Assembly: GCA_043815525.1 (NCBI GenBank)
Contig: JBDRIZ010000050.1
Location: 1-35,910, forward strand
DNA length: 35,910 bases
Direction of reading: 5' to 3'
Source of the DNA: Candidatus Woesearchaeota archaeon
Lineage (GTDB): Archaea > Nanobdellota > Nanobdellia > Woesearchaeales > JAZDKJ01
The position numbers and the translations under genes were made by a program. The first letter of the stretch is position 1. Every line of letters starts with the position of its first letter. The notes beneath the pieces were generated by a model that ran no database searches, was not told the origin of the DNA, and was given only the letters and a program-made list of their open reading frames with translations. Below are positions 1-35,666 of the stretch, in pieces.

Positions 1-174
1 AGTGTGCATGTGTCAGTTCCTGTGCAGACTGCAAAAACCTGTGGCAGTGCTGCTATTAGCGCTATAAGCAAGAAAACAGCCCTCTTTTTTGCCATTATAG
101 AGGGAATCCTGGTTTACTCATATTTATATTTATTGAAAAAAGCTTCTGAAAACATAAAAACTTATATATTGTGA
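1..174 (+). CDS. possible 3' end of an upstream CDS (C-terminal hydrophobic helix)
   Basis: Frame 1 is open from the window edge for 57 codons up to TGA 172-174. The tail reads ...CGSAAISAISKKTALFFAIIEGILVYSYLYLLKKASENIKTYIL, a hydrophobic helix flanked by lysines. No start is visible and the last codons overlap the AT-rich promoter of the next gene, so coding status is uncertain. Confidence 0.3.
   Translation, partial: SVHVSVPVQTAKTCGSAAISAISKKTALFFAIIEGILVYSYLYLLKKASENIKTYIL
161..170 (+). promoter_or_regulatory. TATA-like box heading the first operon
   Basis: cttatatatt is preceded by an A-run (cataaaaa, BRE-like) and ends 28 nt upstream of ATG 198. No properly spaced SD is present. This fits an archaeal-type leaderless or short-leader start. 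Confidence 0.45.
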
Positions 175-197: not shown

Positions 198-821
198 ATG
201 GCTAATCAAAAAGATTTGAGGACTATCAGCAATCTTCAGATTGGTCCGGATTATGTCCTTGTTCATGCTAACACAAAATTCTACCCTAAAGACACTGTCT
301 ATTATGCAGCGTATGTGTTCCTTGACAGGGCACACGTGATTCTGGATGGAGATCCTGAGAAAGTTATTCTCGTTGAGCTTAGACCTAAAGACACCAAGAA
401 TCTGGAAGATCTTGGCAGGGAATTCAATAACGAGATGTTAAGCCACTTAGTATACAAGCAGCAATATGAGATGAATAAGGATGCCCGCGACGCAGTCTTC
501 CAAGAGGTGTGTGCAGGAGTTGAAAGTAGTGAAGTTCCTATTTGCAGCAGCCATGAGGATTTACAAGTATGTAATGAAACTATTGGAGAGATGGACTACA
601 CAAAAGATCCGCTTGGCATAGCAAGGCCGTGGGAAGAAGTGCATGGTAAAATTGAGGAAGGGACTGATAACAATCCACAGTACAGTTACCTGGATGATCC
701 TCTTGGTATAGCAAAGCCGTGGGAAGAGCAGCCCGGCAGGATTCTAAAAGACGAAGGTAATGATGACATGGCAAGTACTGAAAAGTCAGGCAATCATTCT
801 GCTGATGAAAAAAAGAGCTGA
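198..821 (+). CDS. hypothetical protein: ~130-aa N-terminal domain plus acidic tail with two DPLGIA[RK]PWEE repeats (candidate substrate or carrier of the rSAM system)
   Basis: The ORF track gives 171..821 (GTG). ATG 198 (MANQKDL...) fits the TATA spacing better. The N-domain reads ...YYAAYVFLDRAHVILDGDPEKVILVELRPK...EFNNEMLSHLVYKQQ... The C-terminal tail holds two 30-aa repeats. The stop overlaps the next gene start by 17 nt. Confidence 0.8.
   Translation: MANQKDLRTISNLQIGPDYVLVHANTKFYPKDTVYYAAYVFLDRAHVILDGDPEKVILVELRPKDTKNLEDLGREFNNEMLSHLVYKQQYEMNKDARDAVFQEVCAGVESSEVPICSSHEDLQVCNETIGEMDYTKDPLGIARPWEEVHGKIEEGTDNNPQYSYLDDPLGIAKPWEEQPGRILKDEGNDDMASTEKSGNHSADEKKS
594..773 (+). repeat. in-frame tandem duplication, 2 x 90 nt (30 aa)
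   Basis: Unit 1 is DYTKDPLGIARPWEEVHGKIEEGTDNNPQY and unit 2 is SYLDDPLGIAKPWEEQPGRILKDEGNDDMA. The cores at 606-638 and 696-728 are 29/33 nt identical by hand alignment. Confidence 0.8.
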
Positions 822-1701
822 TGTGAAGATAGGGTTTGTCTGCAACAACAACTGCAGGTTCTGTGTGCAGGCGCATAAAAAGCAGTTTGGCAACAGGCCT
901 CTAAGTGATATTAAAAAAGACTTGGAGCTTGCCCGGAATAATTGTGAGGAGGTTGTTTTTACAGGCGGTGAACCGACAATACGTTCTGATATCCTTGACC
1001 TCGTGCGCTTTGCAAAATCTCTTGGTTACACTCAAATTCAGATACAATCTAATGGCCGTAGGTTTGCCTATCCAGGGTTTTGTAGGCAGATAATCGCCTC
1101 CGGAGCAACTGAGTTTGCACCTGCTCTGCACGGCCACTCTCCCAAGCTGCACGATTTTCTTACAGGTAGCACTGGCAGCTTTGACCAGACTGTGGCAGGC
1201 ATAAAAAATTTAAAGTCGTTGGGGCAGAGGGTTATCACAAACACTGTTATTGTCAAGCCAAACTACCGTTATGCCGAAAATATTGCAGAGCTTCTTGTAA
1301 GCCTTCGCGTTGACCAGTACCAGCTTGCTTTTGTGCATCCTATCGGACACGCTATGAAGAACTATGATTCTATTGTGCCTTCTGTAAGCCTCGCAGCACC
1401 TTTTGTGCAAAGGGGCCTTCAGGTAGGTATCGGTTTAGGGATGAGTGTGATGGCAGAGGCGATGCCCTTCTGCACAATGAATGGTTACGAGAGCTATGTC
1501 TCAGAGCTTGTGATTCCGGATACTGAGATAAGAGACCTGCAATATGACCCTGATTACAAGAAGACGAGAAAAACCGAGGGAAAGCAGAAGTTCTCTCAGT
1601 GCAAATCTTGTATTTATGATGGAAGTTGCGAGGGCCCGTGGAAAGAGTATCCTGAGAGAATGGGTTCTGACGAGTTTACCGCAGTCAAGGGGGTGTGTTA
1701 G
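805..1701 (+). CDS. radical SAM protein, small paralogue family (long type)
   Basis: The ORF track gives 760..1701. ATG 805 gives MKKRADVKIGFVCNNNCRFC, matching the paralogue N-termini. Motifs: CX3CX2C (CNNNCRFC), FTGGEPTIRSD, LHGHSPKLHDFLTGSTGSFDQTVAGIKNL, MPFCTMNGYE, CKSCIYDGSCEGPWKEYPERMGSDEF. Confidence 0.9.
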   Translation: MKKRADVKIGFVCNNNCRFCVQAHKKQFGNRPLSDIKKDLELARNNCEEVVFTGGEPTIRSDILDLVRFAKSLGYTQIQIQSNGRRFAYPGFCRQIIASGATEFAPALHGHSPKLHDFLTGSTGSFDQTVAGIKNLKSLGQRVITNTVIVKPNYRYAENIAELLVSLRVDQYQLAFVHPIGHAMKNYDSIVPSVSLAAPFVQRGLQVGIGLGMSVMAEAMPFCTMNGYESYVSELVIPDTEIRDLQYDPDYKKTRKTEGKQKFSQCKSCIYDGSCEGPWKEYPERMGSDEFTAVKGVC

Positions 1702-1926
1702 GTGGCTTGGAAGTGCGACAAGTGCGGCAACACAGAAAGCTTCACTGAAGTCAACACTGTCAACACGCATGTTACCCAGGATAAGAATTCCACACGGATA
1801 TTGAAGATAAATAACATTTACAGGAAGGAGGGGGCACTCAATGTCTGGTGCAACAAGTGTGACAGCGAGGATGTGTCATGGGTTGAACTCACTGACCAGG
1901 ACTCTTCATATCTTACCAGGAGTTAG
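1702..1926 (+). CDS. small Zn-ribbon-like protein (74 aa)
   Basis: A GTG start directly abuts the TAG of the previous gene. The protein has CDKC near the N-terminus and CNKC about 41 residues later (CxxC...CxxC) and an acidic C-terminus. It sits inside the translationally coupled operon. Confidence 0.6.
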   Translation: MAWKCDKCGNTESFTEVNTVNTHVTQDKNSTRILKINNIYRKEGALNVWCNKCDSEDVSWVELTDQDSSYLTRS

Positions 1927-1931
1927 AATGC

Positions 1932-3956
1932 ATGACCAAGGTTGCTGTTGTCGCGTGTGATGGATATGATAAAGTAGATTTGGCCATTGGTCGCGCAATC
2001 AGCCTTCTTGGAGGCATAAACGCTTTTGTTAAAAAGAAGCAGAAAATTTTGATTAAACCAAACTTGTGCGATCCGTTGCCTCCTGACAAGGCTGCAACTA
2101 CTCATCCTGAAGTTGCAAAATCTGTTATTGGAATTGTACTGGGGACTGGTGCAACCCCTGTTGTTGGCGAGCTTTCCGCAGGCAGCATACCTGGCAGGAC
2201 TGAAGAGGCTTTTGTTGCCACAGGCATGAAAGACGTCTGCGCTTCCACAGGGACAAGACTTGTTGATTTTCAGAAAGGTAGCTTTGTTCAGCAACATATC
2301 AAGGAGTATCTATTCCTTGAGAAAACCGACTTTGCAGAAGCTGTCCTTGACTCAGATGCAATAATCAACCTTCCAAAGCTAAAGACTCACGGTGCATGTT
2401 ACCTCACTGGTTGCGTAAAGAATCTTTTTGGGTGTATCCATCCTGAAGAGAGGGAGTATATTCATTCGCATGGTGAGAACTCCCTCAACAATGGTGTGGT
2501 GGATATTTTTTCTGTTGTCAAGAACAAGGTGGTATTGAATATTATGGACGCAGTAGTTGCAATGGAGGGTGATGAAGGCCCAAGCTACGGCAACCCAAAG
2601 AGGTTGGGTTATATTATTGCTTCCACCGATGCTGTGGCAGCAGATGCTGTCGCAGCGAAAATTACAAATCACAATCCAATGGAGATACCGATAATAAGCG
2701 ATTGCCATCACCGCAGGCTTGGCTGCGGCATCCTCAATGACATAGAAATCGTCGGAGATGGCTTTCGCCAGGTGCTTGATTTCAAGGTCCACACAAACTA
2801 CCTAAACAGGCATGACAAGGATAAAAAATCAAGGCTGCAGCCAGTAATTACATCTGCCTGCACGAGATGCTCTGCTTGCGAGAAGAGCTGCCCTGCTCAG
2901 GCGATTTCCTATAGTGATGATAAGGCAAGGTTTGAAATCGACCAAATAAAGTGCATCAAGTGCTATTGCTGCCTCGAGGTGTGCATCTTTGCGGCAATAA
3001 AGCTTGAGACTTCTGCGAGGCCAGCAGACCTTATTCGCCTCGGCCTAAACTGCAACCACAAGTGCCTGTTCTGCACTGTTGGTTTGGACAGGACTCCTGA
3101 TCTGTCCACAAAAGAGGTAATGAACCTCATCGATGTTTTGGCTGCGAATGGTTCGCAGAAACTTGCTTTTACCGGCGGAGAACCAACTTTGAGGCCTGAC
3201 CTTTTTGCTCTGGTGGCATACGCACGATCAAGGGGGATTAAGATAATTGAGTTGCAGACCAACGCTTCAGAAATTTCCAAAGCAGGCTATGCAAAAGCAA
3301 TAACTGACGCTGGAATCAGCCATTTCATGGTCGCCCTGCACTCGGACAAGGAAGAGGTTTACAACAAGCTTACACAAAGCAGGCATTTCAAAAACGCTGT
3401 TGGAGGAGTAAAAAATCTGCTTAAGTTTCCTGTAACAATAACAATTTCGCATGTGATAAATTCAGAGAACTATAAGGGCCTTGAGTCGTTTGTCAATTTT
3501 GTGCATTCAGAATTTCTTGCAAAACCATGCATTTATTTTGGTTTTGTGAGGCCGAATGGCACTGCAAAGGCAAACAAGTGGATTGTTCCAAAGATGAGCC
3601 TTGTCGAGCCATACCTGCATAAGGCTTTTGCAAAATGCGCAGCTCTTGGGATTGTTTTCATGGTTGAGGGTTTGCCTTTATGCTACATGCAGGGTTACGA
3701 GCAGCATAACGACGAGACAAGGCGCCTGCTCTGTTCTCCGGCTGTGCATCTCGAGGCAGGTGTTGTAAGAGATGACACTCATAAGAGGCATCTTGTGGAC
3801 AATAAAGGAGAGGCAGAGTGCTGCGATGTCTGCAGCCTGTCCAAACTGTGCCCGAGAGTCTGGAAAGAGTATTCTGACATCTACGGGACTGGCGAGCTTT
3901 TTCCTGTATTTGACGAGAAACTAAAGGATAGTCTGAAGGTGTTTTTCAGTGGTTGA
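1932..3956 (+). CDS. tri-domain fusion: DUF362 + 2x[4Fe-4S] ferredoxin + small-family radical SAM
   Basis: The N-terminus has DUF362 hallmarks: KVAVVACDGYD, ILIKPNLCDP...ATTHPEV, LPKLKTHG...TGCVKNLFG, DAVVAMEGDEGPSYGNP. The ferredoxin motifs CTRCSACEKSCP and CIKCYCCLEVC start at nt 2859. The rSAM core has CNHKCLFC (nt 3051-3074), FTGGEPTLRPD, LPLCYMQGYE and CDVCSLSKLCPRVWKEY. AGGAG lies 9 nt upstream of the ATG. Confidence 0.92.
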   Translation: MTKVAVVACDGYDKVDLAIGRAISLLGGINAFVKKKQKILIKPNLCDPLPPDKAATTHPEVAKSVIGIVLGTGATPVVGELSAGSIPGRTEEAFVATGMKDVCASTGTRLVDFQKGSFVQQHIKEYLFLEKTDFAEAVLDSDAIINLPKLKTHGACYLTGCVKNLFGCIHPEEREYIHSHGENSLNNGVVDIFSVVKNKVVLNIMDAVVAMEGDEGPSYGNPKRLGYIIASTDAVAADAVAAKITNHNPMEIPIISDCHHRRLGCGILNDIEIVGDGFRQVLDFKVHTNYLNRHDKDKKSRLQPVITSACTRCSACEKSCPAQAISYSDDKARFEIDQIKCIKCYCCLEVCIFAAIKLETSARPADLIRLGLNCNHKCLFCTVGLDRTPDLSTKEVMNLIDVLAANGSQKLAFTGGEPTLRPDLFALVAYARSRGIKIIELQTNASEISKAGYAKAITDAGISHFMVALHSDKEEVYNKLTQSRHFKNAVGGVKNLLKFPVTITISHVINSENYKGLESFVNFVHSEFLAKPCIYFGFVRPNGTAKANKWIVPKMSLVEPYLHKAFAKCAALGIVFMVEGLPLCYMQGYEQHNDETRRLLCSPAVHLEAGVVRDDTHKRHLVDNKGEAECCDVCSLSKLCPRVWKEYSDIYGTGELFPVFDEKLKDSLKVFFSG

Positions 3957-4776
3957 CTTAGGCATTGGAGACAGATGCAACAGCAGTTGCATAATGTGCA
4001 CAACAGTGAGGCCAGAGGACAAAAAGGTGGAGAACCGCATGCTCTCAAAGGAAGAGGTCTTTTCGATGATTGACAAAATGGAGAGGCCACCTTACATAGC
4101 TATCACAGGTGGCGAGCCTACAATAAGAAAAGACTTAACCGAGATAGTAGGTCATGCCAGAAATCGTTTTCCAGCTGCAGAGATAAAGCTTTTGACAAAC
4201 GCCAGGATGGCCAGCTATCCTGACTACGCAAACGACTTGCTCAGCACAGGTATTGATGTGTATATAATCCCTTTGCACAGCCATCACCCTGACCTTCATG
4301 ATTTTGTAACAAGGACAAAAGGAAGCTTTGTTCAGACCGTACAGGGCATCAGGAATTTATCAAAGGCAAAGATCGAGATAAGGATAGTCATCCATGGGAT
4401 TAACTATCCATTCCTTCCAGAGACTGCAGAGTTCATCAGGGATAATTTCCCCGGCGCCTCGGTTGTTATGATTTATTTTGACATAATTGGCAGCGCATTC
4501 ATCAACAGGGATCGGCTTGTTGTGCAGATGACCAGGATAGCACCTTATCTCGAAAAGGCTATTGATGTCTTGCAGCAGAATGACATCCATACCTATCATT
4601 TTCCTTTATGCGTCCTTGGCCTGCGCTACCGCGATAGTGCCAAAGGTGTGACTGTTGTTGGTCACAGGATAATGTTCGCAGACAGTTGTGCAGCATGCAG
4701 CATGAAGTCTAAGTGTTGCGGGATTTGGAAAGCTTATGCAAAGCTGGTCGGTACCGGAGAGTTCAAGCCAATATGA
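3949..4776 (+). CDS. radical SAM protein, small paralogue family (short type)
   Basis: The GTG start overlaps the upstream stop by 8 nt. Motifs: CNSSCIMC, ITGGEPTIRKD, LHSHHPDLHDFVTRTKGSFVQTVQGIRNL, FPLCVLG, CAACSMKSKCCGIWKAYAKLVGTGEF. Confidence 0.9.
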   Translation: MVDLGIGDRCNSSCIMCTTVRPEDKKVENRMLSKEEVFSMIDKMERPPYIAITGGEPTIRKDLTEIVGHARNRFPAAEIKLLTNARMASYPDYANDLLSTGIDVYIIPLHSHHPDLHDFVTRTKGSFVQTVQGIRNLSKAKIEIRIVIHGINYPFLPETAEFIRDNFPGASVVMIYFDIIGSAFINRDRLVVQMTRIAPYLEKAIDVLQQNDIHTYHFPLCVLGLRYRDSAKGVTVVGHRIMFADSCAACSMKSKCCGIWKAYAKLVGTGEFKPI

Positions 4777-6137
4777 AACGAGTTGTTTTGGTCTGGCCTT
4801 TTGACCACTGCCACTCGCCTAGCCTTTCTCTTTTGTACCAGGCAAAGATATTGAATGGTTCCTATGATGTTTCCGTTGTTTATTCAAACCAGCTTTTCTC
4901 TTCTGATAATCTTAGTCTGCCTCTTGAGGTGCAAGAAGAGCCTGAGCGTAGCCTAAAAAAGGTTGCAAGCGTGGTTGCCAAGCTGGATCCTGATTACGTA
5001 TGCATCGGAAGCTACAGGCAGCACACTCCTTTTATTGACAGGTTTGCCAAGCAGTTCCGGATGCAGCATGATGCTGCCTTGATTGCAACCGGCTATGTCC
5101 CGACATTTTCTCCAGAGGAGATGCTTTCTTTGACACCTGAGATTGAATTCATTCTTCGCGGCGAATCTGAGCGCTCGCTTAAGAATTTGTTGGACAGTCT
5201 TTCCAAATCACAAAGTCAGTCTGAAGTGAAAGGGCTTTCTATGAAAAAAGATGGAGTCTTCCATCACAACCCGACCGACAGAATTGAAGATTTGGATTCA
5301 CTGCCTTTGTTTGATTTTGAGGATATTGTGGGAAACAGGCCAAAAAGGATTGACATCCGCTCTTCTCTGGGTTGCATTATGGACTGCCGCTTCTGCGGTC
5401 TTCACAAGATGTGGCCAAGGCCTGTCAGGTATCATAGCGAAGATTATGTGCTTCGCCAAATCAAGCATCTGGACAGCCTGTATTCCATGGAGTTTGTGCA
5501 TTTTATAGACGAGATGTTTCTCTGTAATGTCAAAAGGGCAGAGTCTCTTGCGCAAGCCATCCACAGGAATTTTCCTTATCTTAAATGGGGTTGCATGTTC
5601 AGAAATGATACAGTTAGCGAGTCTGTAGCAAGCCTGCTGAAAGATTCTGGCTTGGTTAACGCAGCTGTTGGAGTGGAATCCAACAACCCAAAGGTGTTGC
5701 AGTTCCTGCAAAAGACCAAGTCGCCATCCAGCTACCTCGCAGGCATTAACAAGAATATTGACATGCTAAAGGAGAAGCTTGAGTTCCTTGAGTTGGGTTT
5801 TATCACAGGCACTCCTGTTGAGACTGCGTCAGACATCCTTTCGCTGATTGAGTTTGTGCAGGATATTAAAAATGACAGGAAAGAGCTGAAGGACCTGAGG
5901 ATAGCGCTTGGAAGGCTTGTCATCTACGCAGGTTCGGATCTCTATTCAAGAATTGGTCAGTTCAACATGGTCAAGGATGAGATGAGGTATTCTGCATACC
6001 AGAAATTCTTCGAAGCAGGCTATGACCGCTTGTTCTGGGCTGTTCCGTGGAACTATCTTGCAGAAAATAAGAACTTCAGGAGCCATGCAGACTACATGGA
6101 GATTCTATCCAAAGCTTTCGAGGCTGCAAGAACATGA
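4773..6137 (+). CDS. B12-binding-domain-type (class B-like) radical SAM protein
   Basis: The ORF track gives 4713..6137. ATG 4773 forms an ATGA overlap with the upstream stop (MKRVVLVWPF...). The N-terminal Rossmann-like region carries RGESERSLKNLLDSL, followed by SSLGCIMDCRFCGL (CX3CX2C) about 215 aa in. Confidence 0.88.
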   Translation: MKRVVLVWPFDHCHSPSLSLLYQAKILNGSYDVSVVYSNQLFSSDNLSLPLEVQEEPERSLKKVASVVAKLDPDYVCIGSYRQHTPFIDRFAKQFRMQHDAALIATGYVPTFSPEEMLSLTPEIEFILRGESERSLKNLLDSLSKSQSQSEVKGLSMKKDGVFHHNPTDRIEDLDSLPLFDFEDIVGNRPKRIDIRSSLGCIMDCRFCGLHKMWPRPVRYHSEDYVLRQIKHLDSLYSMEFVHFIDEMFLCNVKRAESLAQAIHRNFPYLKWGCMFRNDTVSESVASLLKDSGLVNAAVGVESNNPKVLQFLQKTKSPSSYLAGINKNIDMLKEKLEFLELGFITGTPVETASDILSLIEFVQDIKNDRKELKDLRIALGRLVIYAGSDLYSRIGQFNMVKDEMRYSAYQKFFEAGYDRLFWAVPWNYLAENKNFRSHADYMEILSKAFEAART

Positions 6138-7024
6138 GCGAGGCATTCATCAAGCTTGACTTCCGCTGCAACCAGGAGTGCCTGTTCTGCTGCACCTCTG
6201 ATGACAAGGACTCGCTTTCAGCAGAAGAGGCAAGGAATCTTATCGCGAAGTACGTTAATGACATGGGTTACAGAACAGTTTGTTTTACTGGCGGAGAGCC
6301 CACCTTAAGGCCTGACCTGCCAGAGCTTGTGAGTTATGCAAAAAGCCTGTCAGCAGAGGTAAAGTTGCAGACTAACGGATCGCTCTTGTATGACAAAAAG
6401 ATAGCTAGCCAATTAGTCGACGCTGGCGTCACAAGGGCTCTTGTGTCAATCCATTCTCATAAGGATGAAATAAACGATTTTATCACCAACACACCCGGTA
6501 GCCTGCAAAAGTCTCTTTCCGGCATACAGAATCTGCTCGAGTTAGGAGTTGATATTCATCTCGCATATGTAATCACCAACCAGAATATCGAACTCACTGA
6601 CTTTGTGAGGTTTGTTAAGTCCAGGTTTCCTGTAATCAACTTCTTTTTGTTTTTTTTGCCATATCCTTTGGCACGTGGCTGGCGCAATCGCCAGTACGTG
6701 CCTAGACTTGGGGATATTGAAAAAAACCTTTCCGAATTGTACGGCTACTGCAAATCAAAAGGGATTGGCTTCTCAACGCGGGGAATTCCGCTCTGCTACA
6801 TGGCTGGCTTCGAAAATCACTCTTCTGAAACTCAAGCTTTGATGTCTGAGGAAAAGCCGATGGTCATTAACGACTATGAGGTGCTTGAGCCAAAGCACAG
6901 CTTTGAAGAAACAAACGTAAAGGATGATTGCTGCAAATTTTGTGCTGTGAACGACTGTTGCGGCGGTGTCTGGAGATACTATCCTGACATTCACAAACAT
7001 CAATTATGGCCGGTGGTGAGATGA
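6134..7024 (+). CDS. radical SAM protein, small paralogue family (short type)
   Basis: ATGA overlap with the upstream gene. Motifs: CNQECLFCC, FTGGEPTLRPD, IHSHKDEINDFITNTPGSLQKSLSGIQNL, IPLCYMAGFE, CKFCAVNDCCGGVWRYY. Confidence 0.9.
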   Translation: MSEAFIKLDFRCNQECLFCCTSDDKDSLSAEEARNLIAKYVNDMGYRTVCFTGGEPTLRPDLPELVSYAKSLSAEVKLQTNGSLLYDKKIASQLVDAGVTRALVSIHSHKDEINDFITNTPGSLQKSLSGIQNLLELGVDIHLAYVITNQNIELTDFVRFVKSRFPVINFFLFFLPYPLARGWRNRQYVPRLGDIEKNLSELYGYCKSKGIGFSTRGIPLCYMAGFENHSSETQALMSEEKPMVINDYEVLEPKHSFEETNVKDDCCKFCAVNDCCGGVWRYYPDIHKHQLWPVVR

Positions 7025-7968
7025 AGCGCGACAGAAGGCTTGAGCTCCTTGTGGGCTACACCTGCAACAACAACTGCATGTTCTGCTACGTTGCAGCCGA
7101 GAGGGAAAAGTTCAAGGACAAGACAACTTCTGAACTAAAAAAGGATATGCTGGCTGCGAGGAAAAGAGGCACAACTGAACTCGCGTTTCTCGGTGGAGAG
7201 CCAACAATCAGGCCTGACCTGCTGGAGCTCGTGCGTTTTGCAGTGGACAACGGCTTTGAGCATATCAAGGTAACCACCAACGGCAGGATGATGAGCTATC
7301 CTGCTTTTGTCGATTCCATTGTTTTGGCAGGCATTACAAAAGTTCTTTTCTCTTTTCACAGCAGTAAGGGTGAGATTCACGATAAATTGACGAGGGTTGA
7401 AGGCAGCTTCAGGCAGCTCATGCAGGCAGTATCAAACGTTAAAAGGCACCCGCAAGTGGCAATAGAGACAAACTCCACAATCACAAAGCATAATCACACC
7501 GGCCTCCCGGATATGGCAAGGCTTTTTATCAGTCTCGGTATGTTATCATCCGAGTTCATATTCGTGTTCCCGTTCGGAAACAGCCTCAAGAACTTTCACG
7601 ACATCGTTCCTTCCTACAAAGAGTCAGCCAGGTTTATGGTCGAGGCTTTGGAAATTGGGGCAACAAGTAAAACCAAGGTGCTGATGCGTTATGTTCCTTT
7701 TTGTATTCTACCTAACCATATTGGTTATATTGCAGAACTTTACGACCCTCCTGAGCGCGAGCAGGTTGGTCCTGGCTTCGAGACACTTGATGTGATAAAA
7801 ATGCGAAAAACTGTTGATAGGGCACAGTTGGACAAGTGCAATGCTTGCAAGTTTACCCTTGTCTGTGAAGGCCCTTGGAAAATCTATCCAAGATTTATGG
7901 GCTCTGACGAGTTCAACCCAATTGACGGACAAAAGGTTATTGATGTGGGTGAGTTAAGGCAATGGTAG
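7021..7968 (+). CDS. radical SAM protein, small paralogue family (long type)
   Basis: The ORF track gives 7006..7968. ATG 7021 gives an ATGA overlap and MKRDRRLELLVGYTCNNNCMFC. Further motifs: FLGGEPTIRPD, VPFCILPNH, CNACKFTLVCEGPWKIYPRFMGSDEF. GGTGGTGAG lies upstream. Confidence 0.9.
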   Translation: MKRDRRLELLVGYTCNNNCMFCYVAAEREKFKDKTTSELKKDMLAARKRGTTELAFLGGEPTIRPDLLELVRFAVDNGFEHIKVTTNGRMMSYPAFVDSIVLAGITKVLFSFHSSKGEIHDKLTRVEGSFRQLMQAVSNVKRHPQVAIETNSTITKHNHTGLPDMARLFISLGMLSSEFIFVFPFGNSLKNFHDIVPSYKESARFMVEALEIGATSKTKVLMRYVPFCILPNHIGYIAELYDPPEREQVGPGFETLDVIKMRKTVDRAQLDKCNACKFTLVCEGPWKIYPRFMGSDEFNPIDGQKVIDVGELRQW

Positions 7969-8798
7969 TCTATGCCCTGACAGACAAGTGCAACCTGAAC
8001 TGCATCTTCTGTTCTAACGAGGATTTTAAGACATTTTTTAGCCCTCCAGATTACTTGCCGCCTTCACTAAAGGAGATTGAGCAATGGTTTTCGAGCGTGC
8101 CAAGAAGCGAGGAGAACATCACTCTGACTGGTGGTGAGCCAACCTTAAGGCCTGATTTGTTTGAGGTTTTGGACTTTCTGTCAGCTTCTTACCAGAAAGC
8201 CTGCATCACGCTTCTGACAAATGCCAGGAGGTTTGCTTACGATGATTACGCTGCTAAGTTTGCAAAATATGAGCGTTTGGAGATAGAGATTCCAATTCAT
8301 TCGCATTATGAGCGTGTCCACGATGCTCTTACAGGGTTTGCCGGTAGCTTCAGCCAGACCTTAAAAGGCATACAGAACCTCACAAGCCTTGGTGTCAGGA
8401 CTAATATCAGGGTTGTAATAAACAAACTGAACTATAAAGAACTCGAACAGATGATGCATTTCCTGAAATCAACAGGTGGAATAAACAGGGTGGTTTTCAT
8501 CAACATGCGAATCAAGGGCAGGGCCTCGCTTAACAAGGATGCTCTTCTTGTGAAGTACAAGGAGAGCATGCCATATCTCCGCAAGGCCCTTGCCTTTCTT
8601 AAAGGCAATGGGATTGGAATCCAGTTGCTTCACTTCCCATTTTGCGTTATTGACAAGGGGTACTGGTCATGCACCCTGGAAAATCCCTACAAGGCAAAGG
8701 CCTCTGCCTGTGCAAGCTGCTCTGTTGAAAAAAGATGCCCTGGAATGCTGGACTGCTACTTGAGAATTGTTGGAGAAAAGGAGTTCGTGGCACTATGA
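7962..8798 (+). CDS. radical SAM protein, small paralogue family (short type)
   Basis: ATG 7962 overlaps the upstream TAG. Motifs: CNLNCIFC, LTGGEPTLRPD, IHSHYERVHDALTGFAGSFSQTLKGIQNL, FPFCVIDKGY, CASCSVEKRCPGMLDCYLRIVGEKEF. Confidence 0.9.
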   Translation: MVVYALTDKCNLNCIFCSNEDFKTFFSPPDYLPPSLKEIEQWFSSVPRSEENITLTGGEPTLRPDLFEVLDFLSASYQKACITLLTNARRFAYDDYAAKFAKYERLEIEIPIHSHYERVHDALTGFAGSFSQTLKGIQNLTSLGVRTNIRVVINKLNYKELEQMMHFLKSTGGINRVVFINMRIKGRASLNKDALLVKYKESMPYLRKALAFLKGNGIGIQLLHFPFCVIDKGYWSCTLENPYKAKASACASCSVEKRCPGMLDCYLRIVGEKEFVAL

Positions 8799-9742
8799 AA
8801 TCTATCAAGCGAATGGCAGCCAATATTACACTAATGTTGGTAGTGTTTTTTATAGGTATGGGAATTGCTGAGCTGCTCTCATCATTTTTACTTGGTAAGA
8901 ACCCACCAATTTATACGACAGGCATGACAGTTGCTGGTGTTGATTTGCAGCATGAGATGGAAATCCTAGCTATTCATGAAGGCAGATTTGAGGTAATTGT
9001 TCCGGACAATGATAATTACCGGATAGCCGTGATTGGCGATTCAGTAACAATGGGCGGCGGTCTCAACCTGTCACAGACTTACATACCTAAGCTTGAGCAG
9101 CTTATTGAGACTCGTTTCCACAAAGATATCAGGATTATGAATTTTGCCAATGGCGGCACAAGCACGTATCAACACCTCGAGATACTGGAGAGATTTGTGT
9201 TGCCAAATACACCTGACTTGGTGATTCTCCAGATGAATGAGAATGACTACCAGATAAGAGAGGACATAACCCGCAACACCGCAGCCCTTGATAGGGTTCG
9301 GAGGCTGCTTTTGAGCAAAAAGGACCTGTCGCTTCCTCGATGGTTAAACTACAAGATTCAACTCTACCAATATGACGTGTACATAAGTAACATGAACAAT
9401 ACTGTAATGACATCCAACGTGCTGTCCCCGCTCAATAAGTTTGTCCATCTCCTACAGGAGGAGGATATACCATTTATTTTGTTCAGGGTACCTTGTCCGG
9501 GAGACTTCAAGGAGTACATATATTTTGATAGTGTCGAAAAGTACATCAAAGATGAGGGTTATCCTTATTTCGACCTGATGGGCACCACGTTCGGTCAATT
9601 GGACCCTCATGCTGCATATATGAGTGTCTCCCCCGATGGTAAGGTGCTTGACAGCCATCCTCTTGAGATCGGTCACGACATAATAGCTCAACAACTTTTT
9701 ACGCTGATTGTGCAGGGAGGATACATCAAAGAAGATGGATAG
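8795..9742 (+). CDS. membrane-anchored SGNH/GDSL-type hydrolase
   Basis: The ORF track gives 8735..9742. ATG 8795 gives an ATGA overlap. There is an N-terminal TM helix (ANITLMLVVFFIGMGIAELL). SGNH blocks: IAVIGDSVTMGGG (I), NFANGGTS (II), ILQMNENDY (III), LDSHPLEIGHDIIA (V). Confidence 0.8.
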   Translation: MKSIKRMAANITLMLVVFFIGMGIAELLSSFLLGKNPPIYTTGMTVAGVDLQHEMEILAIHEGRFEVIVPDNDNYRIAVIGDSVTMGGGLNLSQTYIPKLEQLIETRFHKDIRIMNFANGGTSTYQHLEILERFVLPNTPDLVILQMNENDYQIREDITRNTAALDRVRRLLLSKKDLSLPRWLNYKIQLYQYDVYISNMNNTVMTSNVLSPLNKFVHLLQEEDIPFILFRVPCPGDFKEYIYFDSVEKYIKDEGYPYFDLMGTTFGQLDPHAAYMSVSPDGKVLDSHPLEIGHDIIAQQLFTLIVQGGYIKEDG

Positions 9743-10643
9743 GCCAAAAAGGGTCGACATAAGGTTTGGCTACAGCTGCAATAACAATTGCATCTTTTGC
9801 ATAGACAAGGACTCAAGGAACAAGTATCCTGACATGACGACCAATCAGGTCAAACTCATCATAAAAGAAGCTGCAGGTAAGGGTGCTGAGCAGCTGACCT
9901 TCACTGGAGGAGAGCCGACAATCCGAAAAGATATTTTCGACCTTGTGTCATACGCTAAGAGCCTTGGCTTCAAGACCATAATGTTTACCACAAACGCAAG
10001 GATGCTGTCCTACTATCCTTTTGCAAAAAAGCTTACAGAAGTTGGCGTGAACAAGTATATGATATCATTACACGCACATACAAATGAGCTCTACGCCAAG
10101 CTAACCCAGACAGGTGGCTTTGACCAGGCTGTGCAGGGAATCAGAAATATTGTAAGCTTGCAGCAGAAGATCTGTGCAAGCTTTGTAGTTAACAAGCACA
10201 ACTACAGGATTCTTCCCGAATATGCGAGGTTCCTTGTAACTATAGGCATCACTAGTCTATTGCAGATGACCTATGTTATGCCTTGCGGAGGAGACCTGAG
10301 ACTGAACAGCCAGAACATTCCGAGCCTAACTGACGCAACACCATTCATCAAGAGGACAATTGATTTAAGAGAAAGTATCGGAATAGCGGAGATGATAGTG
10401 ATGGACGTGCCATTCTGCTTCCTGCAGGGCTACGAAAAGCACATTAACGAGCTTAACATTCCGCATATGGAGATTCACGCCGCAAACCCCGAGCACTCCA
10501 CTGATGACTACAATTTAAGAAGGAAGACAAACAAGGTCAAGCCAAGGCAGTGCAGAACATGCAGGCATGATGCTGTCTGCGAGGGTGTCTGGCCAGAGTA
10601 TGCAGAGATTTATGGGTTTGAGGAACTGGTTCCAGTGAACTAA
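9735..10643 (+). CDS. radical SAM protein, small paralogue family (long type)
   Basis: The ORF track gives 9708..10643. ATG 9735 gives MDRPKRVDIRFGYSCNNNCIFC. Further motifs: FTGGEPTIRKD, VPFCFLQGYE, CRTCRHDAVCEGVWPEYAEIYGFEE. Confidence 0.9.
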   Translation: MDRPKRVDIRFGYSCNNNCIFCIDKDSRNKYPDMTTNQVKLIIKEAAGKGAEQLTFTGGEPTIRKDIFDLVSYAKSLGFKTIMFTTNARMLSYYPFAKKLTEVGVNKYMISLHAHTNELYAKLTQTGGFDQAVQGIRNIVSLQQKICASFVVNKHNYRILPEYARFLVTIGITSLLQMTYVMPCGGDLRLNSQNIPSLTDATPFIKRTIDLRESIGIAEMIVMDVPFCFLQGYEKHINELNIPHMEIHAANPEHSTDDYNLRRKTNKVKPRQCRTCRHDAVCEGVWPEYAEIYGFEELVPVN

Positions 10644-11632
10644 TGATTAAAGCAAAGAGATTGTTAATGAACATCTCGCTTAGCATGATTATTATATTTC
10701 TGATGATCTCTGGCATTGAGCTGTATCTTAGGATTCACTACTCTGGCTTGCTAGCTCAGATACTGACTGGCAAAATGACTGGCTATCCCAATGCCGTGGA
10801 ATCTCTGGGCAAGCTCAGCCAAGGCTATCCTCTCACCCCTAATACAACTGTGGTTTACACTGGATACCTTACATTCCTACAGCCATCAACAATAACAACA
10901 AATAGCCAAGGATTTCGTGATGTTGAGCACAATAAGGGCAAGCCGGCAAATACTGTTCGTATTTTAAGTCTTGGGGATAGTGTCGCTTTCGGTGAGGGTG
11001 TCAATCTGGAAGATACATACGCCAAGGTTCTGGAGAGAAAGCTAAACAATCATAGTACAAAGAAGTACGAAGTCTTGAACTTTGGTCGTTTTGCCTACGG
11101 AACCATGGACGAACTTGAGCTTCTTGAGAAGAAAGGCTTGGATTATAGTCCTGACATCGTCATTTTGATGATGGTCTATAATGACTTTCAGAATGTGGGT
11201 ACTGTTCAGAATGACAACTTGTTATTGGAATCTGTCAGGAGGGATACTGCAAATTCAAGCTTGAGACTCTCACAATGGTTGGATAGAAAGCTTACTATCT
11301 TGGAATATAGGAAAAGCGAAAATATGTACAATGAGACAGACAAATACAATCTCGTAAAATTGCCCTTGGAAGGCATTATCAATCTTTGCCTTCAGCATGA
11401 TATCCATTTGATGGTGCTCCAGTATCACGGCCACCAGCCATATATGGATGATATCAGTAATTTTCTCGCAACACAGGGTATTAGAACCATAGACCTACAG
11501 AAGTCAAAATTGGTGACAGACTACAGAAATGGAGAAATTATGTTGCCAGACGGACATCCTACGCCTCTTGGCCACCAGATTATAGCAGATATATTATTTG
11601 AGAATCTTATTGAGGAAAAAATCTTGAAATGA
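10643..11632 (+). CDS. membrane-anchored SGNH/GDSL-type hydrolase (paralogue of 8795..9742)
   Basis: 1-nt overlap with the upstream TAA. There is an N-terminal TM helix (MNISLSMIIIFLMISGIELYL). SGNH blocks: ILSLGDSVAFGEG, NFGRFAYGT, ILMMVYNDF, LPDGHPTPLGHQIIA. Confidence 0.8.
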   Translation: MIKAKRLLMNISLSMIIIFLMISGIELYLRIHYSGLLAQILTGKMTGYPNAVESLGKLSQGYPLTPNTTVVYTGYLTFLQPSTITTNSQGFRDVEHNKGKPANTVRILSLGDSVAFGEGVNLEDTYAKVLERKLNNHSTKKYEVLNFGRFAYGTMDELELLEKKGLDYSPDIVILMMVYNDFQNVGTVQNDNLLLESVRRDTANSSLRLSQWLDRKLTILEYRKSENMYNETDKYNLVKLPLEGIINLCLQHDIHLMVLQYHGHQPYMDDISNFLATQGIRTIDLQKSKLVTDYRNGEIMLPDGHPTPLGHQIIADILFENLIEEKILK

Positions 11633-12528
11633 GTCAGATAGAAGAGCCAAGATATTGTTTATTTGAACATAAGTATGAGAACAAAGAATGGGTGGGGTAT
11701 ACAAAATTTATCCCGGAAGTCCTTGCAGTTAGGATTGGTGTTAAGCCGGTAATGAGAATCCCAATCAATCCTAATTTTGGGTACCCTAAGTTCAAAGAGC
11801 TGTGCAAAAGATTCGGTCTTGTGACGGGACTCTCAGATTACCAAATTAGGGAGCCCTACACACCAAAGGATATCCTGCCTTCTAAAACGCCTTATGGGCA
11901 CTATTTCATGTATGTTAGCAGAACGCAGGACCTGATTGAGCTGGCAAAAAAGTATGATTTATACGACCAGGATAGGTTCGGAGAGCTAATGGGCTATCCC
12001 CGGTGCTGCATTGACTATTACAGTCGAGTTTCAAACTCTCCCCCAGTCCACGAGGTTTATGGTTATGTGCATAGCAAAAGACCACTGTTTTGGCAGAATA
12101 ATTATCTATTACGCTTTAATTCCAACTACTATCTTCATGCATATTTTTTATGTTCTTTTGACTGCATGGATTCAAGGAAGCGGGGGCAGAAGATATTCGA
12201 AGCAATAAGGAAATTTGATGAGGTGTATGCAAGAAAGATAGAGCACCATCTCAAGCTTCCAATCCTCTTGGATGACACAAGGCCAGGAGGGATTCTTCAC
12301 AACTGGGACCGGCTCAAGGGCGTTGTTTTCAACGGTTCTTGGCATAATAATATCATTGTCTACTCAGGTCAATTGTCCCTTTGGCAGGGAGCATACTTCC
12401 CGATTTTTTCGAAATCCAATCAAGTTTTAATAAATGCAGATTCAATGTACCTATATTCCGATGGTAGGTTGATAGGAAAGATTAAAATAACAAACAATTT
12501 TGAGTCATTTTTCCTGCAATTTAGTTAA
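11629..12528 (+). CDS. hypothetical Cys-motif protein (GYPRCC ... C-x3-C)
   Basis: ATGA overlap with the upstream gene and GAGG upstream. The conserved-looking motifs are FGELMGYPRCCIDYY and HAYFLCSFDCMDS. There is no TM segment. It is the last gene of operon 1. I do not recognise the family with confidence. Confidence 0.8.
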   Translation: MSQIEEPRYCLFEHKYENKEWVGYTKFIPEVLAVRIGVKPVMRIPINPNFGYPKFKELCKRFGLVTGLSDYQIREPYTPKDILPSKTPYGHYFMYVSRTQDLIELAKKYDLYDQDRFGELMGYPRCCIDYYSRVSNSPPVHEVYGYVHSKRPLFWQNNYLLRFNSNYYLHAYFLCSFDCMDSRKRGQKIFEAIRKFDEVYARKIEHHLKLPILLDDTRPGGILHNWDRLKGVVFNGSWHNNIIVYSGQLSLWQGAYFPIFSKSNQVLINADSMYLYSDGRLIGKIKITNNFESFFLQFS

Positions 12529-12728
12529 AAAGTGTATCATATTTATGAGGTATAATAAGCAATTGTTCGAACAGTAAAAATGAAGAAGAATATTGACATC
12601 GTCTGCGCGCAGAATCTGCTTCGGGAGTCTGACGCTTAGGGCATCTGGAATGAAGTGACATGTACGCGAAGGAATAGGCGGACTACTCAAACAAATTGGG
12701 ATATGCTAAATGGTATTGGAGAGCTTGA

Positions 12729-12740
12729 TTAATATATTTT
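12729..12740 (+). promoter_or_regulatory. TATA-like box heading the second operon
   Basis: ttaatatatttt ends 25 nt upstream of ATG 12766, inside the only sizeable + strand gap (12529-12765). Confidence 0.4.
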
Positions 12741-12765
12741 CAAGTATTATTGAGAGGATTATAGC

Positions 12766-15301: not shown

Positions 15302-15302
15302 C

Positions 15303-18793: not shown

Positions 18794-18802
18794 GACGAGA
18801 AT

Positions 18803-19312: not shown

Positions 19313-19334
19313 TCCTATTGCAGATTTTTGACTC

Positions 19335-24333: not shown

Positions 24334-24408
24334 TGTAGTTCCAGTTTGAAGTATTGTATATAATTTTTGCTTAAGGTATATATAATAGCAGATTTACTCC
24401 AGCAATTG
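24334..24408. promoter_or_regulatory. divergent promoter region with two back-to-back TATA-like boxes
   Basis: tgtatataatttt (24355-24367) reads as aaaattatataca on the minus strand, 22 nt upstream of ATG 24333. gtatatataata (24376-24387) lies 22 nt upstream of ATG 24409. Neither start has an SD. Confidence 0.5.
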
Positions 24409-25968: not shown

Positions 25969-26116
25969 CCATAAGTCAGGTGTGCTTTTGAACTCTGCAT
26001 TGATTTCCACGCTGTACGCTTGCTTCCTTCCACGCCTGGTTAGGAGAGGAAAAAAGCTGTACCAGTTGGAATTCTGCAGCTTGTCTGCCTAGTAATGTGT
26101 GTAACATTACCTAAAT

Positions 26117-26130: not shown

Positions 26131-26148
26131 TTCCAATCACTCTTTTGA

Positions 26149-35655: not shown

Positions 35656-35666
35656 AAGGTGTTTAT

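What the first reader, a model, noticed from the sequence alone, without database searches (positions are those of the whole stretch)
198..821. Leaderless first gene: folded N-domain plus tandem DPLGIA[RK]PWEE repeats, a candidate substrate or carrier
The first gene of the big operon has a ~130-aa N-terminal domain and an acidic tail. The tail holds two 30-aa repeats (nt 594-683 and 684-773) whose cores, DPLGIARPWEE and DPLGIAKPWEE, are 29/33 nt identical.

First-gene position, a repeated short core with Trp, Lys/Arg and Pro, and a long leader-like domain are what one expects of a RiPP-type precursor processed by rSAM enzymes. Lys-Trp and Trp crosslinks are established rSAM chemistry in streptide and darobactin.

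From memory, the N-domain segment EFNNEMLSHLVYKQQ also resembles the LLNDYxLRE signature of HxsD-type small proteins, which accompany rSAM/SPASM maturases. I cannot verify this without an HMM.
Basis: partly seen in the sequence, partly recalled or inferred. Interest (0 to 1): 0.65.

Follow-up and report, generated by a model that had tools for sequence, protein, structure and literature searches.

The report
Long HxsD adaptor with conserved tail motif
The first gene of this large radical-SAM operon encodes an HxsD-type helper protein carrying a floppy acidic tail with two copies of a short, highly conserved, undescribed peptide motif. The motif is more likely a docking handle for partner enzymes than a peptide to be modified.

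Summary
Gene 198-821 encodes 207 aa: a confidently folded N-domain of about 110 aa and a disordered acidic tail with DPLGIARPWEE and DPLGIAKPWEE (29/33 nt, 10/11 aa; shuffles reach 7/11 at most).

The HxsD recollection is right at family level. TIGR03976 gives E 2.5e-9 but falls below cut-off, all homologues carry PF27806, and a canonical HxsD hits the profile at 1.5e-15.

The tail motif (aromatic-x-[DE]-D-P-L-G-I-A-x-P-W-E-E) occurs in 1-3 copies in about 87% of the 150 best-scoring family representatives. These come from DPANN archaea, CPR bacteria and Myxococcota. Canonical 95-aa HxsD lacks the motif, and it was never found outside HxsD (38/38 metagenome matches).

Most relatives encode long HxsD, a short HxsD-like protein, HxsB, then an HxsA precursor with His-x-Ser repeats, so a dedicated substrate already exists. 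The Lys/Arg position is usually Val or Ile. Some relatives carry a ferredoxin after the motif.

Best reading (0.5): an adaptor whose N-domain binds HxsC-like radical-SAM enzymes and whose tail motifs are tethered docking sites. A substrate in cis remains possible (0.25), partly because this window holds no HxsB or HxsA. I rate it a new variant of a known kind.

The parts
156..169 (+). BRE/TATA-like promoter element AAAACTTATATAT, 28 nt upstream of the start codon
   Evidence: Read from the sequence. Conserved in the relatives L081, L083 and L088. Its function as a promoter and the transcript start are inferred, not shown.
198..821 (+). Gene for the long-form HxsD-family protein (207 aa plus stop)
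   Evidence: TIGR03976 gives E 2.5e-9 and 37.3 bits. There are 59 homologues carrying PF27806. The canonical Paraburkholderia HxsD hits the family profile at E 1.5e-15.
198..527 (+). Folded HxsD-type N-domain, residues 1-110 (strand-strand-strand-helix-strand-strand-helix-helix)
   Evidence: AlphaFold2 gives pLDDT 95-98 for residues 11-100. TIGR03976 matches residues 26-108. Foldseek finds no PDB match with E<=1e-3; the weak matches are Rpb11/RpoL-, Pcc1- and type III secretion chaperone-like.
528..818 (+). Acidic tail predicted to be disordered, residues 111-207
   Evidence: pLDDT is 47-65. The tail has 23 D+E against 9 K+R.
597..650 (+). Tail motif copy 1, extended form YTKDPLGIARPWEEVHGK (residues 134-151; core 606-638)
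687..740 (+). Tail motif copy 2, extended form YLDDPLGIAKPWEEQPGR (residues 164-181; core 696-728)
805..1701 (+). HxsC-like radical SAM enzyme (298 aa; CxxxCxxC at residues 13-20; no N-terminal domain). It overlaps the end of the HxsD gene by 17 nt and is the likely partner of the N-domain.
   Evidence: HxsC4 model 152.7 bits and HxsC model 114.6 bits, both below cut-off. Its orthologues lie directly beside the long HxsD gene in both locus types. The start at 805 was chosen by comparison with paralogues and is inferred.
1702..1926 (+). Conserved 74-aa zinc-ribbon protein (WKCDKCG...WCNKCD), found only in relatives that share this window's gene order
1932..3956 (+). Fusion of DUF362, a 4Fe-4S dicluster domain and an HxsC-like radical SAM domain
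   Evidence: The same gene order is seen in L081 to L084.
3949..20897 (+). Rest of the operon: nine more HxsC-like radical SAM genes, two B12-binding radical SAM genes, two GDSL-like hydrolases, DUF483, a TPR protein and three uncharacterised paralogous proteins

Best explanation
The gene encodes a long-form member of the HxsD family. HxsD is the small accessory protein of His-Xaa-Ser (HXS) radical-SAM maturation systems.

The roughly 110-residue N-domain most likely docks onto HxsC-type radical SAM enzymes, starting with the translationally coupled gene 2. This is inferred from homology to E. coli HxsD, which pulls down with HxsC.

The 97-residue acidic tail is a flexible tether. It carries two copies of an 18-residue short linear motif (aromatic-x-[DE]-D-P-L-G-I-A-x-P-W-E-E-x-[HY]-G-K).

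I read these motifs as docking sites that recruit or hold a partner of the maturation machinery. The most likely partners are the HxsC-like enzymes, which here lack the ~110-residue N-terminal domain of canonical HxsC. Two motifs per chain would let one adaptor serve several of the twelve paralogous enzymes.

On this reading the protein is not the substrate. In relatives the substrate is a separate HxsA peptide with His-x-Ser repeats. In this window the substrate is not encoded nearby.

Shown here: family membership, disorder of the tail, conservation and copy-number variation of the motif, its exclusive linkage to the HxsD domain, and the gene neighbourhoods. Inferred: binding to HxsC-like enzymes and the docking role of the motif.
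For: Family membership:
- TIGR03976 gives E 2.5e-9 over 3-87 of 90 profile positions.
- All 59 homologues carry PF27806, and several are named HxsD by JGI or NCBI.
- Canonical Paraburkholderia HxsD matches the long-HxsD profile at E 1.5e-15.
- The signature segment aligns with the canonical one.

HxsD biology: E. coli HxsD forms a complex with HxsC in pull-downs and is needed for HxsA maturation (PMC13128918).

A separate substrate exists in relatives:
- 72 of 80 related loci hold an HxsB-type ORF. The five tested on TIGR03978 scored 428-491 bits against a cut-off of 370.
- In 66 loci HxsB starts within 400 nt downstream. In 62 of those the gap holds an ORF of at least 45 aa, nearly all resembling a short tail-less HxsD-like protein.
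- An HxsA-like precursor follows HxsB, and 43 loci hold His-x-Ser arrays.

Motif behaviour:
- It is present in 130 of the 150 best representatives, with 2-3 copies in 28.
- D at -8, I at -4, P at -1 and W are 89-100% conserved, while the K/R site is variable.
- The distance from the N-domain's FNNELL segment to the first motif varies from 35 to 121 residues, and inter-motif spacing from 11 to 64.
- The tail is predicted disordered and does not dock on its own N-domain.
- All 38 metagenome matches to DPLGIAKPW lie in HxsD ORFs. None lies elsewhere in 1.25 Mb of related loci.

Fusions: four representatives continue into a ferredoxin domain after the motif. That fits a platform bringing factors to a radical SAM enzyme.

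Partner candidates:
- Gene-2 orthologues sit directly beside the long HxsD gene in both locus types, in tandem in the window's type and divergently in L011, L034 and L068.
- 109 of 131 HxsC-like ORFs in these loci have the CxxxCxxC motif within the first 50 residues. Canonical HxsC has it at about residue 117-130 and pairs with a tail-less HxsD.
Against: - No binding was measured or modelled.
- The partner of the motif is not identified. HxsB, the HxsA leader or an outside factor fit the co-occurrence data nearly as well.
- The link between tail-bearing HxsD and N-domain-less HxsC rests on essentially one phylogenetic split.
- The window has no HxsB, no HxsA and no other evident precursor in 36 kb. 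That leaves the tail as one of few visible candidate substrates.
- Near-invariance of nine residues across archaea and bacteria is also what a strictly recognised modification site would show.
- Multi-copy cores with conserved flanks are a known layout of precursor peptides.
Confidence: 0.5

Rival explanations
1. Substrate in cis. The HxsD-like domain acts as a built-in leader that binds the radical SAM enzyme. The tethered motif, probably its invariant Trp, is then modified by one or more of the co-encoded radical SAM or B12-radical SAM enzymes. The product either stays on the protein, as a crosslink or protein-derived cofactor, or is released.
For: - The motif is more conserved than the rest of the protein and is always attached to the HxsD domain.
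- It occurs in 1-3 copies with conserved flanks.
- The gene is first in the operon and overlaps an HxsC-like gene.
- The domain it is fused to binds HxsC in E. coli, which would bring the tail close to an active site.
- This window and its closest relatives have no HxsA, no HxsB and no small precursor ORF.
Against: - Most relatives already encode a dedicated HxsA precursor next to HxsB.
- Canonical HXS systems work with a tail-less HxsD.
- Lys/Arg is not conserved, so a streptide- or darobactin-type Lys-Trp link cannot be the family-wide chemistry.
- The motif stays the same while the set of neighbouring radical SAM paralogues ranges from none to about ten.
- Ferredoxin domains follow the motif in four representatives.
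- No protease is evident in the operon.
- Linker length is highly variable.
Confidence: 0.25
2. The motif recruits a factor outside the radical SAM set. Candidates are an electron donor, a chaperone, or a membrane or export component. Alternatively it is an autoinhibitory or regulatory element of the adaptor.
For: - The motif is invariant although the neighbouring enzyme sets differ.
- Ferredoxin fusions show that electron-transfer modules are brought to this protein.
- HxsA in relatives has a hydrophobic segment after its leader, so it is probably exported or membrane-anchored.
Against: - The motif is found only in HxsD proteins. A general host receptor would be expected to have other clients.
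- The ferredoxin-fused members keep the motif, so ferredoxin is probably not its ligand.
- AlphaFold2 does not dock the tail on its own N-domain.
Confidence: 0.12
3. Carrier or scaffold. A small molecule or amino acid is attached to a tail residue, built up by the many radical SAM enzymes, and then released. Known examples of this logic are the LysW amino-group carrier and scaffold-peptide pathways.
For: - The tail is acidic and flexible, with a conserved Trp-Glu-Glu that loosely recalls the EDWGE end of LysW (from my own knowledge).
- The operon has many enzymes and no visible peptide substrate.
Against: - The motif is internal, with 4-106 residues following it.
- The residues after Trp vary (EE, TP, KP, DE, SP), so there is no fixed acceptor residue.
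- No ATP-grasp or other ligase turned up among the window products scanned.
Confidence: 0.08
4. The repeat is a chance or low-complexity feature of a linker and has no function.
For: Tandem Repeats Finder reports nothing. Outside the core the two units are only weakly similar.
Against: - The self-match is 10/11 against a maximum of 7/11 in 300 shuffles, and differences are synonymous.
- The motif is conserved across archaeal and bacterial phyla whose N-domains share about 30% identity.
Confidence: 0.02

Closest known systems
HxsD of the His-Xaa-Ser (HXS) system (TIGR03976 / PF27806). Studied in E. coli strain MEM as part of an antiphage system (PMC13128918).
   Same: The N-domain is homologous. 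The gene sits at the head of an operon of HxsC-type radical SAM enzymes. Relatives have the full D-B-A gene set plus HxsC paralogues. It presumably has the same accessory, HxsC-binding role.
   Different: - Canonical HxsD is 94-96 aa with no tail and no P-W motif.
- The D and R of LLNDYxLRE that were mutated in E. coli are S and Y here.
- The TIGR03976 score is below cut-off.
- The window lacks HxsB and HxsA.
- The HxsC-like partners lack the N-terminal domain of canonical HxsC.
- Hosts are archaea and CPR bacteria, whereas the published survey found 99.7% of systems in Pseudomonadota.
HxsD-like protein (NCBIfam NF038315), the short paralogue encoded next to long HxsD in most relatives
   Same: It has the same fold family and sits in the same loci.
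   Different: It is about 80 aa with no tail and no motif. It is absent from this window.
RiPP precursors with protein-like leader domains (NHLP and Nif11 classes) and multi-core precursors
   Same: A large N-terminal domain precedes short repeated C-terminal units, and the gene lies next to radical SAM enzymes.
   Different: - No NHLP or Nif11 model matched.
- The supposed core is invariant while the supposed leader varies, which is the reverse of those classes.
- A separate precursor, HxsA, exists in relatives.
- No modification has been shown.
Hub proteins with disordered acidic tails ending in short docking motifs, such as the bacterial SSB C-terminal tail and the archaeal ribosomal stalk protein aP1 (from my own knowledge)
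   Same: A folded domain is joined to an acidic linker of variable length and a short hydrophobic-anchored motif. Multivalency is a shared feature.
   Different: There is no sequence relationship. The partner here is unknown. The motif is not at the extreme C-terminus.
PqqD-type RiPP recognition elements, which are small accessory proteins of radical SAM peptide maturases (from my own knowledge)
   Same: Both are small non-catalytic partners of a radical SAM maturase.
   Different: The predicted topology differs, and Foldseek returned no significant PDB match (E<=1e-3); weak matches were Rpb11-, Pcc1- and chaperone-like.

Membership tests
HxsD (TIGR03976 / PF27806) | Profile score at or above the curated cut-off (50 bits for TIGR03976) | tested here: not met
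   37.3 bits, E 2.5e-9, residues 26-108 against profile positions 3-87 of 90. This is homology without meeting the equivalog threshold.
HxsD (TIGR03976 / PF27806) | Pfam PF27806 (HxsD) domain | tested here: inconclusive
   The window protein got no PF27806 hit in the local Pfam scan. All 59 homologues carry a precomputed PF27806 hit. The 88%-identical P0001 is listed as 'PF27806:HxsD (weak)'.
HxsD (TIGR03976 / PF27806) | Reciprocal homology with canonical HxsD of a four-gene HXS operon | tested here: met
   Paraburkholderia HxsD hits the long-HxsD profile at E 1.5e-15 over positions 26-109. Aeromonas HxsD hits at E 5e-7.
HxsD (TIGR03976 / PF27806) | LLNDYxLRE signature with the Asp and Arg shown to matter in E. 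coli | tested here: not met
   The aligned segment is NNEMLSHLVY, with Asp replaced by Ser and Arg by Tyr. The mutational data come from PMC13128918.
HxsD (TIGR03976 / PF27806) | Encoded with HxsB, HxsC and HxsA | tested here: not met
   The window has only HxsC-like genes, all below cut-off. It has no HxsB, no HxsA leader and no His-x-Ser array. The feature is met in most relatives.
HxsD (TIGR03976 / PF27806) | Single-domain protein of about 95 aa | tested here: not met
   The protein is 207 aa with a 97-residue tail. Canonical members are 94-96 aa.
HxsD (TIGR03976 / PF27806) | Physical complex with HxsC | not testable with these tools
   Shown only for E. coli.
RiPP precursor (leader plus core) | Encoded next to its maturase | tested here: met
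   The gene overlaps an HxsC-like radical SAM gene by 17 nt.
RiPP precursor (leader plus core) | NHLP- or Nif11-type leader homology | tested here: not met
   NCBIfam returned only HxsD, HxsD-like and a spurious photolyase hit.
RiPP precursor (leader plus core) | It is the only or dedicated substrate of the cluster | tested here: inconclusive
   Relatives have a separate HxsA precursor. This window has none.
RiPP precursor (leader plus core) | Post-translational modification of the core | not testable with these tools
   This needs mass spectrometry after co-expression.
Lys-Trp crosslinked peptides (streptide or darobactin type) | Conserved Lys and Trp partners in the core | tested here: not met
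   Trp defines each instance, and the alignment of 60 homologues has it invariant. The Lys/Arg site is K 28% and R 7% against V 26% and I 18% in 203 instances.
LysW-type amino-group carrier protein | Acceptor Glu at the extreme C-terminus, and an ATP-grasp ligase in the cluster | tested here: not met
   4-106 residues follow the last motif. No ATP-grasp domain appeared among the products scanned.

The most novel reading that the evidence does not exclude
The invariant Trp-containing motif is a self-contained substrate. A whole branch of HXS-like systems in DPANN archaea, CPR bacteria and Myxococcota would then use an HxsD-fold domain as a built-in leader. The co-encoded radical SAM enzymes would install a conserved modification on the tail, such as a protein-tethered Trp-derived cofactor or a crosslink. 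In operons like this one, which lack HxsB and HxsA, that modified tail would be the product of the pathway.
Probability: 0.2. Interest if true: 0.8.

Novelty: new variant of a known kind. Interest (0 to 1): 0.55.

Why it matters
HXS was only recently shown to be a radical-SAM-matured antiphage system, and the role of HxsD in it is still unclear. The published survey placed 99.7% of systems in Pseudomonadota.

This gene belongs to a large branch not covered by that survey. The profile search found 2504 clusters at 50% identity. Among related genomic loci the hosts are mainly DPANN archaea, CPR bacteria and Myxococcota.

In this branch HxsD has gained a disordered tail with a nearly invariant 18-residue motif. 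The HxsC enzymes have lost their N-terminal domain and multiplied.

The motif gives a concrete handle for asking what HxsD does. Peptide pull-downs, Trp mutants and complex modelling are all feasible.

If the motif is a docking site, it explains how one small adaptor can serve a dozen paralogous enzymes. If it is a substrate, it defines a new class of leader-core fusion.

Tried and rejected
- I tried an AlphaFold2 prediction of a linker-fused HxsC-like + long HxsD chain with a block alignment. Only pLDDT would have been returned in any case.
- A protein search with the tail alone (57 aa) found no candidates, apparently a limit of the word index on so short a query.
- PADLOC gave no hit for the HxsD protein. 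The radical SAM genes gave only generic viperin-level hits.
- A viral-contig scan for the motif gave 0 matches.
- Foldseek against the PDB gave nothing at E<=1e-3.
- I searched the window for HxsB, an HxsA leader, His-x-Ser arrays, a short HxsD-like gene and further P-W motifs. All were negative.
- Small ORFs in the two gaps I checked (about 12529-12765 and 25969-26148) include nothing that looks like a precursor.
- I rejected Lys-Trp crosslinking as the family-wide chemistry.
- I rejected the idea that extra motif copies go with loss of HxsA. L001, L011 and L097 have two copies together with HxsB and HxsA or His-x-Ser arrays, and P0005 has three copies and is followed by a short HxsD-like gene.
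- I treat the HxsD-long + HxsD-like single-chain fusions (P0062, P0079) with caution. The two genes abut or overlap, so one indel could create such a fusion.
- Text search found no paper that mentions the motif or the long form.
Full report
**1. The observation**

The ORF 198-821 on the + strand encodes 207 residues. The ORF finder extends it to a GTG at 171, but homologues align from the ATG at 198.

The two cores DPLGIARPWEE (nt 606-638) and DPLGIAKPWEE (nt 696-728) are 29/33 nt and 10/11 aa identical. Three of the four nucleotide differences are synonymous and the fourth is Arg/Lys. In 300 shuffles of the protein no 11-mer self-match exceeded 7/11.

Outside the cores the two 30-aa units are only weakly alike, at 14/30 aa. 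Tandem Repeats Finder reports nothing.

AlphaFold2, run with a 60-sequence alignment, folds residues 8-110 as strand-strand-strand-helix-strand-strand-helix-helix. pLDDT is 95-98 for residues 11-100. From about residue 111 to 207 pLDDT is 47-65. The tail has 23 D+E against 9 K+R.

The gene heads a tightly packed + strand operon that runs to about 20897. A BRE/TATA-like element at 156-169 lies 28 nt before the ATG and is conserved in three relatives. A near-leaderless archaeal transcript is therefore plausible but unproven.

**2. The family**

- NCBIfam TIGR03976 (HxsD) matches residues 26-108 over profile positions 3-87 of 90, at E 2.5e-9 and 37.3 bits. The curated cut-off is 50 bits.
- The window protein got no PF27806 hit in the local Pfam scan. 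All 59 homologues found in the protein search carry a precomputed PF27806 hit, and several are named HxsD by JGI or NCBI.
- A profile built from these homologues is hit by the canonical 94-aa HxsD of a Paraburkholderia plasmid at E 1.5e-15.
However, the Asp and Arg that were mutated in E. coli are Ser and Tyr here.
- Foldseek finds no PDB match at E<=1e-3. The weak matches are small alpha/beta assembly or chaperone subunits such as Rpb11/RpoL, Pcc1 and type III secretion chaperones. None is an enzyme.

**3. The tail motif across the family**

The motif is present in essentially all 59 homologues, in one copy (53), two (4) or three (2). In the alignment D137, I141, P144 and W145 are invariant. 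That is stronger conservation than anywhere in the N-domain except one Glu.

An exhaustive profile search finds 2504 representative clusters at E<=1e-3. Of the best 150, 130 carry at least one motif and 28 carry two or three.

From 203 instances the extended motif has these features:
- an aromatic residue at -11 (55%) and an aliphatic residue at -10;
- D/E at -9, D at -8 (93%), P at -7 (84%) and L or E at -6;
- G at -5 (80%), I at -4 (94%) and A at -3 (80%);
- a variable residue at -2 (K 28, V 26, I 18, R 7%);
- P at -1 (89%), then W;
- E E K [YHF] G K after the Trp.

Other properties of the motif:
- The distance from the FNNELL segment of the N-domain to the first motif ranges from 35 to 121 residues. 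Spacing between copies ranges from 11 to 64.
- Canonical HxsD from Aeromonas and Paraburkholderia is 94-96 aa and has neither tail nor motif.
- A DNA-pattern scan of metagenome contigs for DPLGIAKPW returned 38 stretches, all inside HxsD ORFs.
- The motif occurs nowhere else in 1.25 Mb of related loci and is absent from viral contigs.

**4. Genomic context in relatives**

A scan of one genome per species found 273 relatives. The best 80 are mostly DPANN archaea, CPR bacteria and Myxococcota, together with MAGs labelled Methanosarcinales.

In 72 of the 80 loci there is an HxsB-type ORF. The five I tested on TIGR03978 scored 428-491 bits against a cut-off of 370. In 66 loci HxsB starts within 400 nt downstream of the long HxsD gene. 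In 62 of those 66 the gap holds an ORF of at least 45 aa, nearly all resembling a second, short HxsD-like protein of about 80 aa without a tail. One tested scored 40.7 bits on NF038315 against a cut-off of 41.

Directly after HxsB most loci encode an HxsA-like precursor. It has a conserved leader (LPKIKKKISSFLxxEEGKISKQSLL), a hydrophobic segment and long His-x-Ser arrays. 43 of 80 loci hold such arrays.

The metagenome loci show the same order. In the family at large, the peptide substrate is therefore a separate gene.

**5. How this window differs**

The window has no HxsB, no short HxsD-like gene, no HxsA leader, no His-x-Ser array and no further P-W motif. The two intergenic gaps I checked hold no plausible precursor ORF.

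Its closest relatives (P0001 at 88% identity, P0003, P0004 and L113) share its gene order:
1. long HxsD;
2. an HxsC-like radical SAM enzyme of about 298 aa;
3. a 72-74-aa zinc-ribbon protein;
4. a DUF362-ferredoxin-radical SAM fusion.

The zinc-ribbon gene is absent from the 80 genome loci.

Copy number of the motif does not follow this split. Two- and three-copy proteins also occur next to HxsB and HxsA.

**6. Clues to mechanism**

- E. coli HxsD binds HxsC in pull-downs and is required for HxsA maturation. HxsB and HxsC did not associate stably.
- Orthologues of window gene 2 lie directly beside the long HxsD gene in both locus types. They are in tandem in the window's type and divergent in L011, L034 and L068.
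- 109 of 131 HxsC-like ORFs in these loci have the CxxxCxxC motif within their first 50 residues. Canonical HxsC carries a ~110-residue N-terminal domain before it. Tail-bearing HxsD thus goes with N-domain-less HxsC, although this is essentially one evolutionary split.
- Four representatives (P0078, P0127, P0145, P0146) continue after the motif into a 2Fe-2S or 4Fe-4S ferredoxin domain. Two others (P0062, P0079) continue into the short HxsD-like domain, but these could be indel artefacts of abutting genes.
- The tail does not dock on its own N-domain in the monomer model.

**7. Interpretation**

The best-supported reading, at about 0.5, is an adaptor. The HxsD-fold N-domain binds HxsC-type radical SAM enzymes. 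The disordered acidic tail carries one to three tethered docking motifs that recruit or hold a partner. The most likely partners are the N-domain-less HxsC-like enzymes.

Features in favour are:
- the variable linker length;
- the hydrophobic anchor pattern (aromatic, L, I, W, Y/H) set in acidic sequence;
- domains fused after the motif;
- a dedicated HxsA substrate in most relatives;
- an invariant motif despite a changing set of enzymes.

The main rival, at about 0.25, is a substrate in cis, with the HxsD domain as a built-in leader. It is favoured by the extreme conservation, the strict linkage to the HxsD domain, the repeats with conserved flanks, and the absence of any other visible substrate in this window.

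A Lys-Trp crosslink cannot be the family-wide chemistry, because the Lys/Arg position is Val or Ile in 44% of instances.

Less likely readings are recruitment of an outside factor (0.12), a LysW-like carrier (0.08) and chance (0.02).

**8. Comparison with what is known, and novelty**

The protein is a homologue of HxsD but fails several membership features of the curated family. These are the score cut-off, the signature residues, the size, and the HxsB/HxsA neighbourhood in this window.

The published HXS work does not mention archaea and placed 99.7% of systems in Pseudomonadota. Full-text searches found no paper on the motif, on long HxsD or on the HxsC paralogue families.

I therefore rate it a new variant of a known kind. 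It has a well-defined and experimentally tractable open question: what the P-W motif binds, or what it becomes.

Noticed in passing
window 1702-1926 (+): A conserved 74-aa zinc-ribbon protein (WKCDKCG...WCNKCD) lies between the HxsC-like gene and the DUF362 fusion. It occurs only in relatives with this window's gene order (L081, L082-84, L088, L113) and in none of the 80 genome loci. It gives a weak TFS-like hit (E 8e-4). It could be a substrate or a replacement for the short HxsD-like protein.
   Followed up: partly
window 805-18030 (+) and 33944-34857 (+): There are eleven stand-alone HxsC-like radical SAM paralogues and one DUF362-ferredoxin fusion. All score below the HxsC and HxsC4 cut-offs, and all have the CxxxCxxC motif near the N-terminus. 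Canonical HxsC has a ~110-residue N-terminal domain that these lack.
   Followed up: partly
window 33944-34165 and 34114-34857 (+): The last HxsC-like gene is split into two overlapping frames, with the cluster motif in the first piece. This is either a frameshifted pseudogene or a sequencing error.
   Followed up: no
window 4713-6137, 19335-20897, 22888-24333 (-), 24367-25968, 27264-28610, 32421-33947; also 26149-27267, 29405-30421, 30418-31044: Six B12-type radical SAM enzymes (five with a Pfam B12-binding hit) are interleaved with three cobalamin-related genes. These are a RACo-type corrinoid activase, a URO-D/MtaA-like methyltransferase and a small corrinoid protein. Together they look like a dedicated methyl-cobalamin supply and repair set for the methylases.
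   Followed up: no
window 13659-14318, 18005-18793, 18803-19312 (+) and 28597-29364 (-): Four paralogous proteins of 169-262 aa have no significant family match. Three have an N-terminal membrane anchor. They were not found in the 80 related genome loci. They are possible alternative substrates or products of the operon.
   Followed up: partly
window 1-107 (-); L081 1-444 (-): The divergent upstream gene begins with a signal peptide (MAKKRAVFLLIALIAALPQVFAVCTG...). In the relative L081 it continues as a Cys-rich secreted protein.
   Followed up: no
window 8735-9742, 10643-11632, 11629-12528, 15270-16148 (+), 20842-22560 (-): These genes are two membrane-anchored GDSL-like hydrolases, a DUF483 protein, a TPR protein and a PMT_2-like multi-pass membrane glycosyltransferase. 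DUF483, the DUF362 fusion and the PMT_2-like gene recur in many related HXS-like loci.
   Followed up: partly
window 31031-32281 (-) and 35182-35703 (-): An AAA_14/DUF4143 ATPase matches the PADLOC candidate defence family PDC-S01 at 219.8 bits. A Pol-beta-type nucleotidyltransferase matches PDC-S09. Both suggest a defence-island setting, and similar ATPases sit next to HxsB in L006 and L011.
   Followed up: no
relatives P0078, P0127, P0145, P0146, P0060, P0062, P0079, P0148, P0188: Natural domain fusions of long HxsD exist. Partners are C-terminal 2Fe-2S or 4Fe-4S ferredoxins, a second HxsD-like domain, tandem HxsD domains, and Lys/Ala/Pro-rich N-terminal extensions in bacterial members.
   Followed up: partly
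L001-L080 and L089-L126: HXS-like systems in DPANN archaea and CPR bacteria encode HxsA precursors with a distinct conserved leader (LPKIKKKISSFLxxEEGKISKQSLL), a hydrophobic segment and up to about 29 His-x-Ser repeats. This differs from the signal-peptide-type HxsA of Proteobacteria.
   Followed up: partly
L087 1196-2338 (+): A 380-aa multi-pass membrane protein lies directly upstream of a three-motif long HxsD. It contains a GDAK-type segment that recalls prepilin or preflagellin (A24) peptidases. I judged this by eye only.
   Followed up: no
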